Source: Minisyncoccota bacterium
Lineage (GTDB): Bacteria > Patescibacteriota > Microgenomatia > UBA1400 > UBA12028
Assembly (NCBI GenBank): GCA_016211945.1
Contig: JACRHV010000004.1
Location: 2,649 to 66,648 of the forward strand
Direction: 5' to 3'
Length of the DNA: 64,000 bases
Part shown: positions 5,016 to 51,207 of the stretch, in pieces
Position numbering within the stretch: the first letter of the stretch is position 1
How the letters are laid out: every line of letters begins with the position of its first letter
Notes under the pieces: model-generated
Database searches by the model: none
Seen by the model: only the letters and a program-made list of their open reading frames with translations
What the model was told of the DNA's origin: nothing
Translations under genes and position numbers: made by a program

Positions 5016-5396
5016 ATGAAAACTAAAGTCTTTACACCAAAAGCTCCCTCTCCAGGATCAGGCCCATTTTCTCAAGCAATTATTGCCAATAATTTTGTTT
5101 TCACACAGGGTTCAATTTATCTCACTCCTGAAGGCAAATTGTTGGAAGGGACAATTGATGAACAAATCCACCAAATCATGAGAAATCTTCAAGCAATTCT
5201 AGAAGAAGCTGACGCAACATTTTCAGATGTCGTAAAAACAACAATTTTTGTTACTGATATGACGATATATGGGAAAGTAAATGAGATATATGCGAGTTAT
5301 ATGTCTGACCCATATCCAGCGAGGGAAACCGTATGTGTAAAGGAGCTTCCACTGGGTGCAAAAGCGGAGATAAGCATGATCGCGATAAAAAAATAA
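5016..5396 (+). CDS. ridA: RidA/YjgF family reactive-intermediate deaminase
   Basis: 126 aa, length and conserved positions typical of RidA (GPFSQAI..., C-terminal ...AKAEISMIA). Confidence 0.8.
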   Translation: MKTKVFTPKAPSPGSGPFSQAIIANNFVFTQGSIYLTPEGKLLEGTIDEQIHQIMRNLQAILEEADATFSDVVKTTIFVTDMTIYGKVNEIYASYMSDPYPARETVCVKELPLGAKAEISMIAIKK

Positions 5397-46272: not shown

Positions 46273-46711
46273 GGTCCTCGCCTTTCTGCGGAACATCAAA
46301 CTGCTCTGCGATTTCCTCGGCATGCTGTTCAAGTGATTCCATGTATGTGTGATATGCGTCTCGATCCCAAAGTTCTACTCGATTTGCGGAACCCGTAAAG
46401 ACTACCTCTTTGGTAATGTTCGCTTTATTACGAAGATATTCCGGAATGACGGCCCTCCCAACGGTATCAAACTCGAGTTCGCTTGCCTCGTTTGCCATGA
46501 GACGTGCGAAGTCGCGGTGGACTTTTTTGGTGACACTACTATCCTCTAATGTTCCTATAAATGCTCGCCAATCCTGCTGTGAAAAAAGGAAAAGACATCC
46601 ATCCAATCCTCGTGTTAACACTGGTTTTTCTCCAAGAGAGTTGCGAAACTTCACAGGAACAGACACTCTCCCTTTCTCTTCTAACTTGTGATAATATGTT
46701 CCGATATACAT
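46265..46711 (-). CDS. mraZ: Transcriptional regulator MraZ
   Basis: Duplicated MraZ-type halves (MYIGTYYHKLEEKGRVSVP...), first gene of the dcw cluster. Confidence 0.9.
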   Translation of the reverse strand: MYIGTYYHKLEEKGRVSVPVKFRNSLGEKPVLTRGLDGCLFLFSQQDWRAFIGTLEDSSVTKKVHRDFARLMANEASELEFDTVGRAVIPEYLRNKANITKEVVFTGSANRVELWDRDAYHTYMESLEQHAEEIAEQFDVPQKGEDHV

Positions 46712-46808
46712 GGTTCTAGGCTTATTTCCCACTAATTTCCACTAGATTGAGTGTAAGCGAAATACAACGGCATGTCAACGCGAAGAAAAGACGAAAAAGA
46801 GAGTAAGC

Positions 46809-47996
46809 TTAAAGAATCGAGTTTGCTAGCAGTTGGAGAAGTTTTCCACTATCTCCAAATGCAATCGTTGGAGATTTTTGTTTTTCAAGCAGTATGAGCC
46901 CATCTTTAGCTTTATCTCTATGATGTTTTCCGTGTATCCATGTATAACTCGCATACCAACATCCATGTTTGGGAAAAACTCCAGATAGAATTGCCCCCAT
47001 ACTTTCAAGATAGAGAGAGATCTGACGAAAATCTTTCATACATGGTATTTGGAATATTGTTGTTTCAAATACACTCTCTTCGTCTAGTAATTCTTTAAGC
47101 ATTTCCACACCTAAAACATCGGAAACAACACGCGTATGTGTTACGGAATTTTCATGAATTGACATCTCGCGAAAAAAATACTGCCTTGACTTCTTTGTAT
47201 CCACAGCTCGACCTATTTCCTTAAGTTGTTCTGTTGAATAAAGAAAAAATGGTTTTTGAGCGTCTGTCATATCGTGTGGTGGATTTATGTATTCATGTGT
47301 TCCTGGTTTTTCGTGGAAAAACGTAGCAAATCGGCCTAAACCAGAGTCACTATCTGTTGATAACATGGCTTGAGCTATGCTTGCATTAAATTTTTTTCCT
47401 ATATGTGCATTCCAATCTAAGACAACGTCTTGTTGTATCACGAATGAGGATGGATGAAGCGCCAAAGCTGGTGTGTCTATTGTTGATAGAAAACGTTGAA
47501 TTGCGAGTGTTAACGTTGTTGAATCAGACACAAGTGTGTAATCTGGAAAAAGCGTTGAAGTTTCGTGAACGGGTATCGCAAACGCAGATAAAACACCATT
47601 ATTCTGCTTTTCTGGGAGTGTCGCTACTCGACCAAACTCAACCGTTCTTTCTGCGTGATCAAAAACAAGACTAACTGTCCCCACTGGTTTCTGTTCATGA
47701 TCTGTAGCAAGAAAACAGAGTGTTTGAATATCAATGAAATTATTTGCCTGAGATACAGATAAAAGAAATGCGTGAAGTATGTCCTCTGGATTATTAAAAA
47801 CTTCATAAAAATAGTGAACAAGTTTTCCTAGCCCCCAAGCTCTCCGCAACATTTCAGAAATATGGTGTGCGTCATCTAATGTTTCTGCAAGACGAATATC
47901 ATACCCTTGACTACGGTATGATTGGCCAGCTAACAGATTCTGAACAATTTCAGATTGATTATCCAATTTTTGGAGTAATTCTTTGCGTAATGGCAT
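46809..47996 (-). CDS. Hypothetical protein (395 aa), possibly with a GNAT-like region
   Basis: Clean ORF; segment VGTVSLVFDHAERTVEFGRVATLPEKQNNGV is weakly GNAT-like; otherwise unassigned. Confidence 0.4.
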   Translation of the reverse strand: MPLRKELLQKLDNQSEIVQNLLAGQSYRSQGYDIRLAETLDDAHHISEMLRRAWGLGKLVHYFYEVFNNPEDILHAFLLSVSQANNFIDIQTLCFLATDHEQKPVGTVSLVFDHAERTVEFGRVATLPEKQNNGVLSAFAIPVHETSTLFPDYTLVSDSTTLTLAIQRFLSTIDTPALALHPSSFVIQQDVVLDWNAHIGKKFNASIAQAMLSTDSDSGLGRFATFFHEKPGTHEYINPPHDMTDAQKPFFLYSTEQLKEIGRAVDTKKSRQYFFREMSIHENSVTHTRVVSDVLGVEMLKELLDEESVFETTIFQIPCMKDFRQISLYLESMGAILSGVFPKHGCWYASYTWIHGKHHRDKAKDGLILLEKQKSPTIAFGDSGKLLQLLANSIL

Positions 47997-48009
47997 AAAA
48001 ATGTAAAAC

Positions 48010-48231
48010 TTACACCACTACCGCATGTTCTTCATGATATTGATATAAAATATCTGATTCTTCTAGGTTAATTTCATTCTTTGCACACGCTTGGAGTATT
48101 GCCATGCTTGCAGATGGTGCGTACGCATATGGAATATTCCCAAAATCTTTCACGAAACCTGCCATTGTTCGTAATATTGCTATAGCACGATCTGAAGTAA
48201 GTTGTTTTTCTAATTCTTCTGCAGTTGGCAT
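48010..48231 (-). CDS. Small hypothetical protein (73 aa from the ATG; the ORF track uses an upstream TTG)
   Basis: The ATG at 48231 has an AAAAAGGGGG RBS 4-5 nt upstream; lies 13 nt upstream of the 395 aa gene. Confidence 0.35.
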   Translation of the reverse strand: MPTAEELEKQLTSDRAIAILRTMAGFVKDFGNIPYAYAPSASMAILQACAKNEINLEESDILYQYHEEHAVVV

Positions 48232-48284
48232 ACTACCCCCTTTTTCAATCTTCAAAGGATTGTATTCTTGGATATTTTCTCTGC

Positions 48285-48333
48285 TTGACTTATTTCTGAC
48301 TGTTTCTGACTATTAATGACTTTTTGATATAAT
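48285..48333 (+). promoter_or_regulatory. Promoter with four helically phased TGACT direct repeats and an extended -10
   Basis: TTGACT(48285)-n5-CTGACT-n4-CTGACT-n4-ATGACT, then TG-a-TATAAT (48325-48333). The third repeat gives a -35-like CTGACT with a 16 nt spacer. The -10 ends 7 nt before the ATG at 48341. Confidence 0.45.
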
Positions 48334-48340
48334 ACCAGAC

Positions 48341-49600
48341 ATGGATAATTATCTTTATCCTCTTCCACGAAAAATATTACTCAAAAGATTTGAGAGCTTA
48401 TTCTGGTGTATTGCCCATCGCTCTTCCGTGAGCTTCGTCGGTCTTCCAGAAAGTGCAAAAAGCGGGTATCTTCAATTCATTCTCAGTAAACCAGACCATC
48501 TTGAGGAATTATTACAAGATCATATAAAAAATACTATTCTTGTCTATTTCTCGCCAATATCATTTGAGCCGAATAATCCATACGCATGGCTTCACCAACT
48601 CAACATTAAACTCGCTGAGATAGATTCGACATACCACTGCATACAAAGCAATGACCCTGTCATAGTGCTCTCTTCAATACAACACTATCTCATTCAGCTT
48701 CATGATCGAGGCAAGCATTGCGTTTTCATCATAAACAATCAGGAGTACTGGACCTCTTTGCCCTCTGTGGCAGGACAAATATGGAAAGCAATTTTTGATA
48801 CAAAAAGGCATCCGCCAAACCCGGCATGCTCACTTGTTTTCCTCCTTCACACATCTCCATACATCCTTCAAGATTCATCTGATTTTTTCCGCGAACTATA
48901 CATTCCTCTGCAAGAAAATGTGCTTTTCTTTCCAACTCTTTCTCAAGAAGAATCTTTATATACTATTCAACGTTTTTCTTCCTTTTCTCATAATGAGTTG
49001 TCCATTCAGATAAAAAATATGCTTGTTCAATATTCTGGTGGATATTATCCCGTTTTGAGAGAGAGCGTACGATTATTCTTCAGAGTGAAGAGAAAAATTA
49101 CGCAAAAGCATCTTCTTCAATTAGGGAAACATGACGTTCTTCTTTCTCTTTTTCAAAAGATGTGGGACTCATTCACCGAATCAGAAAAAAGTGTTTTGAG
49201 ACGTATTGTTCAGTACAAATCCGTTCCCAAAGATACAGAACAGCAACAATTTCTTTCTAGATTAGGAGTCATAGCAAACACCGGAAAACTCCAATCATTG
49301 TGGTTTGAGATATTTATCCGTGAAAAAATGTATCGCTCGGCATTATCGCCATTTGAGGTTGATCGATTTTCATATCTGTCCGGCATTGAACAAACATTGA
49401 TCCATGAATTTCTCAAACGGAAAAATGAAGTTATTTCCCGAGAAGAAATCGCTCAAATTCTCTGGGGAGAAAAATATCTTGAAAAATATTCTGATTGGGC
49501 GATAGATAAAACCATCTCGAGAATGCGAAAAAATATGGAACATCATCACTCTACTATTAGTGTTCAAACCATCAAGGGAAAAGGGTATCAAATCATATGA
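48341..49600 (+). CDS. OmpR/PhoB-type winged-helix DNA-binding protein with a ~300 aa N-terminal degenerate P-loop NTPase-like domain (no receiver domain recognised)
   Basis: C-terminal trans_reg_C-like segment ISREEIAQILWGEKY...DWAIDKTISRMRKNM...ISVQTIKGKGYQI. N-terminal Walker-A-like GLPESAKS and Walker-B-like HCVFIINNQE, both degenerate. Confidence 0.6.
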   Translation: MDNYLYPLPRKILLKRFESLFWCIAHRSSVSFVGLPESAKSGYLQFILSKPDHLEELLQDHIKNTILVYFSPISFEPNNPYAWLHQLNIKLAEIDSTYHCIQSNDPVIVLSSIQHYLIQLHDRGKHCVFIINNQEYWTSLPSVAGQIWKAIFDTKRHPPNPACSLVFLLHTSPYILQDSSDFFRELYIPLQENVLFFPTLSQEESLYTIQRFSSFSHNELSIQIKNMLVQYSGGYYPVLRESVRLFFRVKRKITQKHLLQLGKHDVLLSLFQKMWDSFTESEKSVLRRIVQYKSVPKDTEQQQFLSRLGVIANTGKLQSLWFEIFIREKMYRSALSPFEVDRFSYLSGIEQTLIHEFLKRKNEVISREEIAQILWGEKYLEKYSDWAIDKTISRMRKNMEHHHSTISVQTIKGKGYQII

Positions 49601-51207
49601 CAGCACGAACAGATCATGAAAATAGAATGCGAAGGATCACAGTCGGTGTTGATAATGTGCTTGTTATGGCGCAAAAACGATCAGAAATCCTTCAACCAGA
49701 TGAAGAAGATGAATCTTTTGTTATCCCTACTCTACAAACGATAACAGAACGGGAATCATCGATGATTCAATACATTCAATGCATGTTAAAAAATTCACAT
49801 CATCAGGCACAAATTGTCCTTGTCGGCGACGCTGCTTTAGCAGAAATTCGCGGATATCGATTACCAAGTCAAAAAACCACAGATCTTGATCTTCTTGTTA
49901 TAGGTGTGACTCAAGATGAGGTTGAGAAAGTATTACATGACCATCAGGCCGAAGGAAAATACACTATTTCATATGATTATGCTCGTACATATCCTGGAAA
50001 AAGAAAAATATACTATAGACTTACATTTAAAGATGGAGTTCAAGTACATGTCTTTTGCACCATTTTTCCAGACACAAAAGAGCAACTTCTTGATATTGGA
50101 GATGCGCTTCGCCACTTACCAAATGGAACCGTGGGAATTATTTGCGAAGGGCATGAGTATCGAGGATACTCACCATTTCAGAATGGGATTGACCATGTGC
50201 GCGACAATACCATTGTAGGCCATCCATTCCCAGAGGGCGTAGAATCTGGATCTATTGCAACATTTACCGCAGTACTTCGATGGATTATCGACACACAAAG
50301 ACTTCCGTATTTTTCTATTCCAAACGAGGACTATAACAAGATGAGACGATGGTCTGCCGCTTTTCAAGAACAGAATCTCACAGACGAAGAAACTCAAACA
50401 CTTGATGTTGTTCTTCACTCTGAACTTTCAAAAGCTTTTGATCGATTTGGAAAAAGTGATAACAGAGAAAGTGCATCAATTTTCTTTTGGAAACTTCAGT
50501 ACACTGGATTTCTTCAGGCATTACTTGGGCCGGCATGGTCAATTACCTCGCGGCGATTGTCTTCTCAAGATCCACATCGCCTTGCCTTGATGAATTTTTT
50601 TGGTCAGGAAAGTAGTTGGGAAATATTTCAGACAGCTTTTACATTATGTTCAGATATCCCAACAGCAGAAATCGCAGAAAGAACTGGATTACCACTTCCT
50701 GAACACTGGCATACATCAATCTATTGGAATAAAAAAGTACTGGAGAACATAAGTGAAAAACCATTAGTATTTGAGGGTATATACATCCCCGCTTCTCAAG
50801 TGATTCACCATCAAACTGCCGATAAAAAATATCATGCTGTTTCTTATCAAGATTTCATTACACGAAAGATACTATATGAAAAAGCTCATGATATTTATTG
50901 GAAACAAATTCAACCACGCATTGAACGATTTATTTTGAGAGAAAGGCGAGATATATATAAAGAAACAGGGCTCGATATTTTTGGCGGAAAAGAAGGTATT
51001 TTTGAGGAAATGGTGCGCACCGCAATTATTCGTCTATTGATGTCTGATGTGTTTGAGCAAGCTTTTTACCAATCGCTTACTCTGGCACAATACACTGATC
51101 TTTTATCAGCAGACACTTCTTTTACTTCAAAACTTGATAGACAACTTGCAGAACTTTTGAATGTGTGGCATAACATTCCTGTTGAAAAAAGACACAAAAC
51201 TACGTAA
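49597..51207 (+). CDS. Pol-beta-superfamily nucleotidyltransferase domain protein (AbiEii/DUF1814-like motif) with a long C-terminal extension, 536 aa
   Basis: hG[GS]x9-13Dh[DE]h-type signature IVLVGDAALAEIRGYRLPSQKTTDLDLLVIG resembles GGTAL...R.S.DLDF of AbiEii-like NTases. Start overlaps the upstream stop (ATGA). An internal MIQYIQ start would put the motif near the N-terminus. Confidence 0.55.
   Translation: MTARTDHENRMRRITVGVDNVLVMAQKRSEILQPDEEDESFVIPTLQTITERESSMIQYIQCMLKNSHHQAQIVLVGDAALAEIRGYRLPSQKTTDLDLLVIGVTQDEVEKVLHDHQAEGKYTISYDYARTYPGKRKIYYRLTFKDGVQVHVFCTIFPDTKEQLLDIGDALRHLPNGTVGIICEGHEYRGYSPFQNGIDHVRDNTIVGHPFPEGVESGSIATFTAVLRWIIDTQRLPYFSIPNEDYNKMRRWSAAFQEQNLTDEETQTLDVVLHSELSKAFDRFGKSDNRESASIFFWKLQYTGFLQALLGPAWSITSRRLSSQDPHRLALMNFFGQESSWEIFQTAFTLCSDIPTAEIAERTGLPLPEHWHTSIYWNKKVLENISEKPLVFEGIYIPASQVIHHQTADKKYHAVSYQDFITRKILYEKAHDIYWKQIQPRIERFILRERRDIYKETGLDIFGGKEGIFEEMVRTAIIRLLMSDVFEQAFYQSLTLAQYTDLLSADTSFTSKLDRQLAELLNVWHNIPVEKRHKTT

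What the first reader, a model, noticed from the sequence alone, without database searches (positions are those of the whole stretch)
48285..48340. Four TGACT direct repeats at 10-11 bp phasing on the promoter of the winged-helix gene; possible autoregulation and a leaderless start
The sequence reads cTTGACTtatttCTGACTgtttCTGACTattaATGACTttttgaTATAAT. That is four [T/C/A]TGACT units spaced 11, 10 and 10 bp, all on one face of the helix, running into an extended -10 (TGaTATAAT). OmpR/PhoB-family proteins characteristically bind tandem direct repeats with this periodicity, and the gene immediately downstream encodes such a DNA-binding domain, so autoregulation is a natural inference. The -10 ends only 7 nt before the annotated ATG (48341), implying a leaderless or nearly leaderless mRNA. 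The same 85 bp region is the divergent promoter region for the 73 aa / 395 aa gene pair.
Basis: seen in the sequence. Interest (0 to 1): 0.6.

Follow-up and report, generated by a model that had tools for sequence, protein, structure and literature searches.

The report
Conserved self-regulation site of a CPR regulator
Four evenly spaced TGACT repeats sit on the promoter of a DNA-binding regulator gene in an uncultured "candidate phyla radiation" bacterium, and the same layout recurs in front of dozens of related genes, so it is very likely where this little-known regulator family binds to control its own, apparently leaderless, gene.

Summary
TGACT starts at 48286, 48297, 48307 and 48317 (spacing 11/10/10). 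It is followed by TGaTATAAT (hexamer 48328-48333), and the ATG is at 48341. No other such array occurs in the 64 kb window.

- Among 100 non-redundant homologous genes from CPR/Microgenomates contigs, 39 carry at least 3 phased TGA[C/G] repeats just upstream on the gene strand, about 167 times the background rate.
- In the 12 closest relatives a repeat core always starts 21-23 bp before a TAnAAT -10, so it occupies the -35 position.
- With L058 added, the -10 ends 5-7 nt before the ATG in 12 of 13 promoters (11 nt in L134). That geometry fits a leaderless mRNA.

The protein is not a response regulator. It has an ORC/Cdc6/STAND-like AAA+ fold with a deviant Walker A and no Walker B acid, fused to a C-terminal OmpR/PhoB-type winged helix.

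The best explanation is a PHO-box-like operator, made of -35-like hexamers, through which the protein regulates its own two-gene operon. The second gene looks like a nucleotidyltransferase. Repression is favoured over activation but is not shown, and binding itself is untested. The divergent genes are not conserved, so a shared divergent promoter is only a local possibility.

Verdict: a new variant of a known kind, of moderate interest.

The parts
48285..48290 (+). Repeat 1, TTGACT. The conserved 'gcTTGA(C/T)' first unit of the array.
   Evidence: Sequence. The first unit is gcTTGAC or gcTTGAT in 9 of the 12 close loci, and gcATGAC in L137 and L134.
48296..48301 (+). Repeat 2, CTGACT.
   Evidence: Sequence. 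Its core starts 31 bp before the -10, in register with the -32/-33 repeat of the relatives.
48306..48311 (+). Repeat 3, CTGACT. It occupies the -35 position, with a 16-bp spacer to TATAAT.
   Evidence: Promoter scan, 10 of 12 matches with TG. A repeat core starts 21-23 bp before the -10 in 12 of 12 close loci.
48316..48321 (+). Repeat 4, ATGACT. It lies inside the -35/-10 spacer, 6 bp upstream of the -10. Only this window and L001 have a repeat here.
48325..48333 (+). Extended -10, TGaTATAAT.
   Evidence: TAnAAT is present in 13 of 13 close promoters, with TGn in 10 of 13.
48341..48343 (+). ATG start codon 7 nt after the -10, with no Shine-Dalgarno sequence. The inferred transcription start is at or 1 nt before the A, giving a leaderless mRNA.
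   Evidence: In-frame stop at 48317-48319 and conserved N-terminus. The gap from the -10 to the ATG is 5-7 nt in 12 of 13 close promoters.
48341..49600 (+). Gene for the 419-aa regulator. Residues 1-335 form an AAA+/STAND-like domain (deviant Walker A GLPESAKS, no Walker B acid). Residues 346-417 form an OmpR/PhoB-type wHTH.
   Evidence: Pfam. AF2 model with pLDDT 89.5. Foldseek hits to ORC/Cdc6, Apaf-1/CED-4 and archaeal AAA+ proteins. PDB sequence hits.
49597..51207 (+). Co-operonic 536-aa gene whose start overlaps the regulator's stop by 4 nt (ATGA). It is a putative Pol-beta-type nucleotidyltransferase-like protein.
   Evidence: Conserved immediately downstream in L001-L004, L056 and L057. 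Invariant G77..G86..D96xD98. Weak hits to PolyA_pol_RNAbd and to the NTase-like chain 5uvd, E 0.19.
48253..48280 (.). 28-nt block 100% identical to the orthologous locus L001. On the minus strand it contains TACAAT (48264 to 48259), a candidate -10 for the divergent small-ORF/395-aa transcript.
   Evidence: No -35 match was found. This is an inference only.
48010..48231 (-). Divergent 73-aa ORF with a strong Shine-Dalgarno sequence. It is reduced to 19 aa in L001.

Best explanation
The four TGACT units are the cognate operator of the protein encoded immediately downstream.

The protein's C-terminal OmpR/PhoB-type winged helix recognises a roughly 10-11 bp unit made of (C/T)TGAC(T/A) plus 4-5 AT-rich bases. 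Several copies probably bind head-to-tail on one face of the DNA, held together by the N-terminal AAA+/STAND-like domain.

The units are themselves -35-like hexamers. One always sits at the -35 position of a strong extended -10 promoter, and in this window another fills the spacer. Occupancy would therefore compete with sigma region 4 and RNA polymerase. The most likely outcome is negative autoregulation of a leaderless, bicistronic mRNA that encodes the regulator and a nucleotidyltransferase-like partner.

Status of each step:
- Shown: the array, its non-randomness, its family-wide conservation and fixed register, the domain identities, and the conserved distance from the -10 to the ATG.
- Inferred: that this protein, rather than a paralogue, binds the sites; the stoichiometry; the sign of regulation; and the transcription start site.
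For: The array is unique in the window and far beyond chance.

Family-wide conservation:
- 39 of 100 non-redundant family genes have at least 3 phased TGA[CG] within -130..+20 on the gene strand. That is 2.6 per kb against 0.0156 per kb elsewhere.
- The unbiased histogram of pairwise distances peaks at 9-11, 18-22, 29-32 and 38-40 bp.
- In the 12 closest loci, cores start at -22/-23, -32/-33, -42/-43 and -54/-55 relative to the -10. In WIN and L001 they start at -11, -21, -31 and -42, a shift of one repeat unit that keeps the register.

The protein fits the site:
- The wHTH is OmpR/PhoB-type, and closest to PhoB in NCBIfam.
- The recognition region EKYSDWAID(K/Q)x(I/M)S(R/K)(I/L)RKKL is almost invariant across the family, matching the invariant TGA core.
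- PHO boxes are 11-nt direct-repeat units with 7 conserved and 4 variable positions, bound head-to-tail (PMC4415409).

Evidence for repression:
- A distant subfamily places the same repeats over the -10 and downstream (TTGACA-17-TAgAAT overlapping CTGACTAgAATCTGACTA...). That geometry is only compatible with repression.
- The promoter has a near-consensus extended -10 and a -35-like repeat, so it should not need an activator.

The operon partner is conserved, with overlapping stop and start codons.
Against: - No binding, footprint or transcription start data exist.
- Placing a repeat at -35 and another in the spacer 6 bp from the -10 is also the classic layout of class II activators. For SARPs, the 3' repeat lies 8 bp from the -10 and the upstream repeat overlaps the -35 (PMC10936776). 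PhoB boxes replace the -35 element.
- Only 39% of family genes pass the strict array criterion. Others carry TGAC motifs in mixed direct and inverted arrangements.
- Genomes hold several paralogues with nearly identical recognition helices, so a paralogue could be the binder.
- Only 64 kb of the genome could be scanned for further sites.
Confidence: 0.6

Rival explanations
1. The sites and the binder are the same, but the protein activates its own promoter as a class II activator, as PhoB, B. subtilis PhoP and SARPs do. The repeat at -35 would recruit sigma region 4 and RNA polymerase, giving positive autoregulation.
For: - A repeat sits at the -35 position in 12 of 12 close loci, with further repeats upstream at 10-12 bp steps.
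- In this window repeat 4 is 6 bp from the -10. SARP promoters have the 3' repeat 8 bp from the -10 and the upstream repeat over the -35 (PMC10936776).
- The wHTH is closest to PhoB, a class II activator (established knowledge).
- The register to the -10 is preserved after a shift of one unit, as expected if contact with the polymerase matters.
Against: - The promoter already has TGnTATAAT and a 4-5 of 6 match at the -35, so it needs no activator.
- A distant subfamily places the same repeats over the -10 and the start region, which cannot activate.
- No BTAD or other known activation module is present.
Confidence: 0.22
2. The array is a genuine transcription-factor operator, but it is bound by another protein. 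That could be a paralogue of the family or a different OmpR-type regulator, so the gene is regulated but not autoregulated.
For: - Several paralogues per genome have nearly identical recognition helices.
- Extra arrays lie in front of other genes in an Amesbacteria locus.
Against: - The array travels with the gene family across many lineages, and with each tandem paralogue.
- No second family member and no other array is present in this 64 kb window.
- Autoregulation is the simplest reading of a motif that co-occurs with a transcription-factor gene.
Confidence: 0.1
3. No dedicated factor is involved. The repeats are a chance or slippage-generated run of -35-like hexamers in AT-rich intergenic DNA, or alternative -35 elements for RNA polymerase.
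For: - The units resemble TTGACA, and only one -10 is present.
- The tandem unit TTTCTGACT(G/A) is duplicated.
Against: - Conservation of number, spacing and register persists in loci whose proteins are only 31-41% identical, with unconserved spacers.
- Enrichment is 167-fold.
- TGACT is depleted genome-wide.
Confidence: 0.04
4. The array is an iteron or origin-like element on which an ORC/Cdc6- or DnaA-like initiator assembles next to its own gene.
For: - The N-terminal domain's best structural matches are ORC/Cdc6.
- Initiators bind phased repeats beside their own genes (established knowledge).
- The locus is a low-GC island.
Against: - There is no GC-skew switch.
- No Walker B acid is present.
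- Up to four tandem paralogues occur per locus, each with its own promoter array.
- The array overlaps a canonical promoter and is only about 40 bp long.
- No AT-rich unwinding element or inverted repeat is present.
Confidence: 0.03

Closest known systems
PhoB and the PHO box (E. coli); B. subtilis PhoP with four TT(A/T/C)ACA repeats
   Same: - OmpR/PhoB-type wHTH, with PhoB the best NCBIfam match.
- The operator consists of tandem direct repeats of about 11 bp, each with 6-7 conserved and 4-5 AT-rich positions (CTGTCAT against CTGACT).
- PhoB binds the PHO-box repeats head-to-tail, and the box overlaps or replaces the -35 (PMC4415409). Head-to-tail binding is only inferred here.
- The four-repeat core of B. 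subtilis PhoP promoters is cited from my own knowledge.
   Different: - There is no receiver domain and no phospho-acceptor. The N-terminus is an AAA+/STAND-like domain.
- The promoter has a strong extended -10, so repression is more likely than activation.
- The target is its own leaderless operon.
SARP regulators, especially AfsR (OmpR-type DNA-binding domain + BTAD + NOD + TPR)
   Same: - An OmpR-type wHTH is combined with a STAND/NOD-like NTPase fold.
- Direct repeats are spaced about one helical turn apart.
- The 3' repeat lies a few bp from the -10 and the upstream repeat overlaps the -35 (PMC10936776). Here repeat 4 is 6 bp from the -10 and repeat 3 is at the -35.
   Different: - Domain order is inverted, with the wHTH at the C-terminus.
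- There is no BTAD and no TPR.
- The Walker B motif is degenerate.
- The repeat sequence is unrelated.
- The lineage is CPR, not actinomycetes.
MalT-type STAND regulators and the ORC/Cdc6 and DnaA initiators (AAA+ plus a C-terminal DNA-binding domain acting on repeated boxes)
   Same: - The architecture is an N-terminal AAA+/STAND fold, a helical lid and a C-terminal (w)HTH.
- The best Foldseek hits are ORC/Cdc6, Apaf-1/CED-4 and the archaeal PAB2304 and SSO1545 proteins.
- Several phased boxes suggest oligomer assembly on the DNA. The properties of MalT and DnaA are cited from my own knowledge.
   Different: - There is no detectable sequence homology. The N-domain finds only 69 clusters, all about 350-450 aa.
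- Walker A is deviant (GLPESAKS), no Walker B acid is present, and there is no sensor domain.
- The DNA-binding domain is OmpR-type, not LuxR-type or ORC-type.
AbiEi/AbiEii type IV toxin-antitoxin / abortive-infection modules
   Same: - The operon is bicistronic, with a wHTH gene first and a nucleotidyltransferase-like gene second.
- In AbiE, AbiEi represses its own promoter through repeats (PMC3985639, PMC7319586).
- There is a weak PADLOC AbiEi hit, E 0.01.
- The locus is a low-GC island and its neighbours vary among relatives.
   Different: - AbiEi binds inverted repeats through an N-terminal wHTH and has no AAA+ domain.
- AbiEii is a DUF1814 protein, whereas the 536-aa partner gives no DUF1814 hit.
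- Toxicity is untested.

Membership tests
OmpR/PhoB-type winged-helix DNA-binding domain (Pfam Trans_reg_C, PF00486) | Significant match to the domain model above its gathering score. | tested here: met
   45.3 bits against a cutoff of 26.2, residues 346-417. PDB profile hits to ToxR, PcoR, CpxR and PhoB at E 1e-7 to 1e-5.
OmpR/PhoB-type winged-helix DNA-binding domain (Pfam Trans_reg_C, PF00486) | A three-helix bundle with a C-terminal beta-hairpin wing. | tested here: met
   The AF2 model has helices 348-359, 367-382 and 385-401 followed by strands 408-411 and 415-418. pLDDT is about 90 in this region.
Two-component response regulator (OmpR subfamily) | An N-terminal receiver domain with a phospho-acceptor Asp. 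| tested here: not met
   No Response_reg hit. NCBIfam matches cover only the C-terminal 70 residues and fall far below cutoff. The N-terminus folds as an AAA+-like domain.
SARP (Streptomyces antibiotic regulatory protein) | An N-terminal OmpR-type DNA-binding domain followed by a BTAD. | tested here: not met
   The wHTH is C-terminal and there is no BTAD hit.
AAA+/STAND NTPases (ORC/Cdc6, Apaf-1, MalT-like) | The P-loop NTPase alpha/beta fold with a helical lid. | tested here: met
   Foldseek probability 1.00, E 5e-7 to 1e-4, to ORC1/Cdc6, Apaf-1, CED-4, PAB2304, SSO1545 and RuvB.
AAA+/STAND NTPases (ORC/Cdc6, Apaf-1, MalT-like) | Canonical Walker A (GxxxxGK[ST]) and Walker B (hhhhD[DE]) motifs. 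| tested here: not met
   - Walker A is GLPESAKS. The K and S are kept but the glycines are replaced.
- The Walker B strand reads FIINNQE here and IISSP or FIGKL in homologues, with no conserved acid.
- Nucleotide binding cannot be tested with these tools.
PHO-box-type operator (tandem direct repeats for OmpR/PhoB-type proteins) | At least 2 same-strand repeats of about 10-11 bp, each with a 6-7 nt conserved core and a variable AT-rich remainder. | tested here: met
   Four units at 11/10/10 bp. The family consensus is a(c/t)CTGAC(T/a) plus an AT-rich stretch, and the spacing mode is 11 bp.
PHO-box-type operator (tandem direct repeats for OmpR/PhoB-type proteins) | Demonstrated binding by the cognate protein. 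| not testable with these tools
   This needs EMSA or footprinting. Only comparative co-occurrence is available.
Leaderless mRNA | The transcription start coincides with the A of the start codon. | not testable with these tools
   No transcriptome data are available. As a proxy, the -10 ends 5-7 nt before the ATG in 12 of 13 close promoters (11 nt in L134), and no Shine-Dalgarno sequence is present.
Iterons / replication origin | Repeats beside an initiator gene, together with a strand-skew switch and an AT-rich unwinding element. | tested here: not met
   Cumulative GC skew shows no inflection at 48.3 kb. No additional repeats or inverted repeats were found.
AbiE (AbiEi/AbiEii) type IV toxin-antitoxin system | An AbiEi-family antitoxin together with a DUF1814 nucleotidyltransferase toxin. 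| tested here: inconclusive
   The AbiEi hit is weak, E 0.01 and 13 bits. The partner gives no PADLOC or Pfam hit, only an NTase-like G..G..DxD signature.

The most novel reading that the evidence does not exclude
The 419-aa protein may represent a CPR-specific class of ORC/Cdc6-like pseudo-ATPase fused to an OmpR-type wHTH. In this reading it polymerises head-to-tail along an array of -35-mimicking TGAC boxes and acts as the autorepressor, and possibly the antitoxin-like partner, of a co-translated nucleotidyltransferase. That would make the pair an AbiE-like accessory or defence module. The module has diversified into many paralogous pairs in Microgenomates, each with its own variant operator.
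Probability: 0.12. Interest if true: 0.75.

Novelty: new variant of a known kind. Interest (0 to 1): 0.5.

Why it matters
CPR/Patescibacteria have small genomes and almost no experimentally characterised transcription factors. This finding pairs a family-specific regulator with a precisely defined candidate operator.

The regulator family has no Pfam model for its 335-residue N-domain. That domain finds only 69 clusters among 1.84 billion representative sequences.

The operator has a clear consensus, spacing and promoter register. These features can be tested directly with purified protein and a fragment of about 75 bp, without culturing the organism.

The finding also gives comparative evidence for leaderless expression in this lineage. 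It shows how an operator built from -35-like hexamers can slide by one repeat unit without losing its register.

If the nucleotidyltransferase partner proves to be toxic, or the AAA+-like domain proves to drive filament-like assembly on DNA, the interest would rise considerably.

Tried and rejected
- **Function of the 536-aa partner.** Two word-indexed homologue searches returned only the protein itself and its orthologue. The AF2 model built from 2 sequences was poor (pLDDT 47.6), so no fold search was run. Pfam, NCBIfam, PADLOC and PHROGs gave nothing significant.
- **Known RNA element.** Rfam gave only a chance-level hit.
- **Palindromic operator.** No inverted repeat occurs in the promoter.
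- **Shared divergent regulon.** The divergent genes are unrelated among the relatives, so this reading is rejected as a family feature.
- **Additional sites in the window.** No other array was found, and no convincing two-unit site.
- **Origin or iteron reading.** There is no skew switch.
- **A universal partner gene.** An HMM of the partner detects it only in the closest subfamily. Other subfamilies have other tightly linked partners.
- **Literature.** Nothing was found on this family or on leaderless genes in CPR regulators.

Full report
**1. Observation**

The sequence at 48285-48343 reads cTTGACTtatttCTGACTgtttCTGACTattaATGACTttttgaTATAATaccagacATG.

- TGACT cores start at 48286, 48297, 48307 and 48317, giving spacings of 11, 10 and 10 bp.
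- TG lies at 48325-48326, TATAAT at 48328-48333 and the ATG at 48341.
- TGACT is depleted in the window, with 83 found against 141 expected.
- TGACTN5TGACT occurs only at this site, 2 matches against 0.15 expected.
- No other phased array of 3 or more TGACT, TGAC or TGA[CG] exists on either strand.
- In 300 Markov simulations a 4-unit TGACT array never appeared.
- The consensus promoter scan reports CTGACT-16-TATAAT with an upstream TG, 10 of 12 matches.

The one correction concerns the intergenic distance. It is 109 bp to the Shine-Dalgarno-preceded ATG of the 73-aa ORF.

**2. The gene and its protein**

The ORF at 48341-49600 encodes 419 aa. An in-frame stop lies inside repeat 4, and the conserved N-terminus (M-x-D-x-x-YPLP) begins at this ATG, so the start is secure.

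Only residues 346-417 match a known family. Pfam Trans_reg_C scores 45.3 bits. PhoB is the best NCBIfam domain match. ToxR, PcoR, CpxR and PhoB are the best PDB sequence matches.

The AlphaFold model is confident, with mean pLDDT 89.5. Its N-terminal 335 residues match AAA+/STAND folds by Foldseek, including ORC1/Cdc6, Apaf-1/CED-4 and the archaeal PAB2304 and SSO1545 proteins. The P-loop is deviant (GLPESAKS), and no Walker B acid is conserved.

By sequence this N-domain is a small orphan family. It finds 69 clusters among 1.84 billion representatives, nearly all 350-450 aa. The source record names the organism as a Candidatus Pacebacteria MAG.

The protein is therefore not a response regulator. 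It is an AAA+-like (pseudo)ATPase fused to an OmpR/PhoB-type wHTH.

**3. Comparative evidence for the repeats**

I fetched 137 loci that encode homologues. Their upstream regions show the same design again and again.

- Of 100 non-redundant family genes, 39 have at least 3 same-strand TGA[CG] cores spaced 9-13 bp within -130..+20.
- That is 2.6 arrays per kb, against 0.0156 per kb in the remaining 1.74 Mb of strand-sequence, an enrichment of about 167-fold.
- A histogram of all pairwise core distances, which does not depend on array calling, peaks at 9-11 (mode 11), 18-22, 29-32 and 38-40 bp.
- The unit consensus is a-(c/t)-C-T-G-A-C-(T/a) followed by 4-5 AT-rich bases.
- The wHTH recognition region EKYSDWAID(K/Q)x(I/M)S(R/K)(I/L)RKKL is almost invariant, in line with the invariant TGA core. 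Subfamilies with different helix variants (DKTISR against DQ(V/L)(M/I)SK) have different flanks and layouts.
- One Amesbacteria locus carries two further partial arrays in front of neighbouring genes.

Taken together, this behaves as a transcription-factor site rather than as a general promoter feature.

**4. Promoter anatomy in the closest subfamily**

I compared 12 loci with 31-74% protein identity, anchoring each on its -10 hexamer.

- Ten loci have cores starting at -22/-23, -32/-33, -42/-43 and, where a fourth unit exists, -54/-55.
- This window and its 74% orthologue L001 have cores at -11, -21, -31 and -42.
- So a (A/C/G)TGAC(A/T) hexamer occupies the -35 position, with a 16-18 bp spacer, in 12 of 12 loci.
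- In this window the whole array lies one repeat unit closer to the -10. Register is preserved, and repeat 4 sits inside the spacer, 6 bp from the -10.
- With L058 added there are 13 promoters. All 13 have TAnAAT, and 10 of 13 have the TGn extension.
- The -10 ends 5-7 nt (mode 6) before the ATG in 12 of 13, and 11 nt before it in L134.
- No Shine-Dalgarno sequence is present.

This geometry puts the expected transcription start on or next to the A of the ATG, so a leaderless mRNA is the consistent inference. Several other operon-leading genes in the window show the same geometry, so leaderless starts are probably a habit of this genome rather than a peculiarity of this gene.

**5. A different layout in a distant subfamily**

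In L015, L020, L040, L072, L083, L102, L106, L089, L075/77, L019, L067, L098 and L073 the layout is TTGACA-17 bp-TA(g/a)AAT. The CTGACTAgAAT-CTGA(C/G)TA units overlap the -10 and run downstream of it. This arrangement can only repress.

**6. Mechanism**

The best-supported model is that the encoded protein binds its own promoter at PHO-box-like tandem half-sites. Binding would be head-to-tail, as established for PhoB (PMC4415409), and cooperative through the AAA+-like domain.

Three observations favour negative autoregulation:
- the sites are -35 look-alikes that cover the -35 and, in this window, the spacer;
- the promoter has a near-consensus extended -10 and so should be active without an activator;
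- the distant subfamily has an occluding layout.

The main rival is class II activation. SARPs place their 3' repeat 8 bp from the -10 and the upstream repeat over the -35 (PMC10936776), and PhoB boxes replace the -35. This window's layout is similar.

I put about 0.6 on an autoregulatory operator with repression and about 0.22 on activation. The rest is divided among binding by a paralogue, chance, and an origin-like element. The origin-like reading is disfavoured by the absence of a skew switch and by the tandem paralogues.

**7. Context**

The regulator's stop codon overlaps the start codon of a 536-aa gene (ATGA). Homologues of that gene follow the regulator gene in L001-L004, L056 and L057.

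Its invariant G77..G86..D96xD98 signature points to a Pol-beta-type nucleotidyltransferase, and two weak hits agree (PolyA_pol_RNAbd; PDB 5uvd). This remains an inference, because the AF2 model was poor. Other subfamilies have different tightly linked partners.

The divergent genes differ among the relatives. A shared divergent promoter is therefore at most a local feature. WIN and L001 do share a perfectly conserved 28-nt block (48253-48280) that contains a minus-strand TACAAT and has no -35. Repeat 1 lies where that -35 would be.

The four genes between 46.5 and 51.2 kb form a low-GC island.

A weak AbiEi hit, together with the wHTH-then-NTase operon, recalls AbiE type IV toxin-antitoxin modules (PMC3985639). 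That is a lead and not a classification.

**8. Verdict**

This is a new variant of a known kind: an OmpR/PhoB-type direct-repeat operator serving an uncharacterised CPR-specific AAA+-wHTH regulator family. Binding, the sign of regulation and the transcription start remain to be shown experimentally.

Noticed in passing
window 46500-51200: A low-GC island (37-39% GC against 44-48% in the flanks). It holds the 395-aa gene, the small ORF, the regulator gene and the 536-aa gene, wedged between mraZ (dcw cluster) and the 266-aa and glycyl-tRNA synthetase genes. Synteny is the same in L001.
   Followed up: partly
window 48010-48231 (-); L001 4830-4889 (-): The 73-aa ORF with a strong Shine-Dalgarno sequence is only 19 aa in the orthologous locus (MPDAKELEKQHNVDHAVVV). 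The N- and C-terminal residues are kept but about 54 internal codons are missing. It may be a leader or upstream ORF of the 395-aa gene rather than a conserved protein.
   Followed up: partly
window 48253-48280: A 28-nt block, CAAAGGATTGTATTCTTGGATATTTTCT, is 100% identical to L001 although the flanking proteins are only 74-77% identical. It contains TACAAT on the minus strand, a candidate -10 for the divergent transcript, with no -35. Repeat 1 lies where that -35 would be.
   Followed up: partly
window 49597-51207 (+): The 536-aa partner gene overlaps the regulator's stop codon (ATGA). It has an invariant G..G..DxD nucleotidyltransferase-like signature and belongs to no known family. Together with a weak AbiEi hit for the regulator, the pair is reminiscent of AbiE toxin-antitoxin modules.
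   Followed up: partly
L068 (four copies); L070/L012, L088/L014, L048, L049, L029, L084, L072 (two each): Family paralogues occur in tandem or clustered in single loci. This indicates lineage-specific expansion of the regulator family in Microgenomates.
   Followed up: no
L006/L065 5466-5492 and 8898-8924: Two extra partial arrays (cTTGACCCGCACCTGACCTTTGCCTGAC-like) lie in other intergenic regions, 36-64 nt upstream of minus-strand genes of 263 aa and 162 aa. They suggest a small local regulon in an Amesbacteria genome.
   Followed up: partly
window starts at 5016(+), 12592(-), 18420(+), 41831(+), 41787(-), 60074(-): Other operon-leading genes have a -10-like hexamer, several with TGn, 6-7 nt before the start codon and no Shine-Dalgarno sequence. 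Leaderless mRNAs may be common in this genome.
   Followed up: partly
whole window: The pentamer TGACT is markedly under-represented on both strands, with 83 found against 141 +/- 13 expected from dinucleotide-preserving shuffles.
   Followed up: no
protein P0038: A 7596-aa protein matches residues 221-283 of the regulator's N-domain in 18 separate stretches. The helical lid segment may exist elsewhere as a repeat module.
   Followed up: no
Genome contigs record titles: Several contigs carrying family members are labelled Gammaproteobacteria, Clostridia, Bathyarchaeia or Eisenbacteria MAGs. Given the otherwise exclusive CPR distribution, these labels probably reflect mis-binning or mis-classification.
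   Followed up: no
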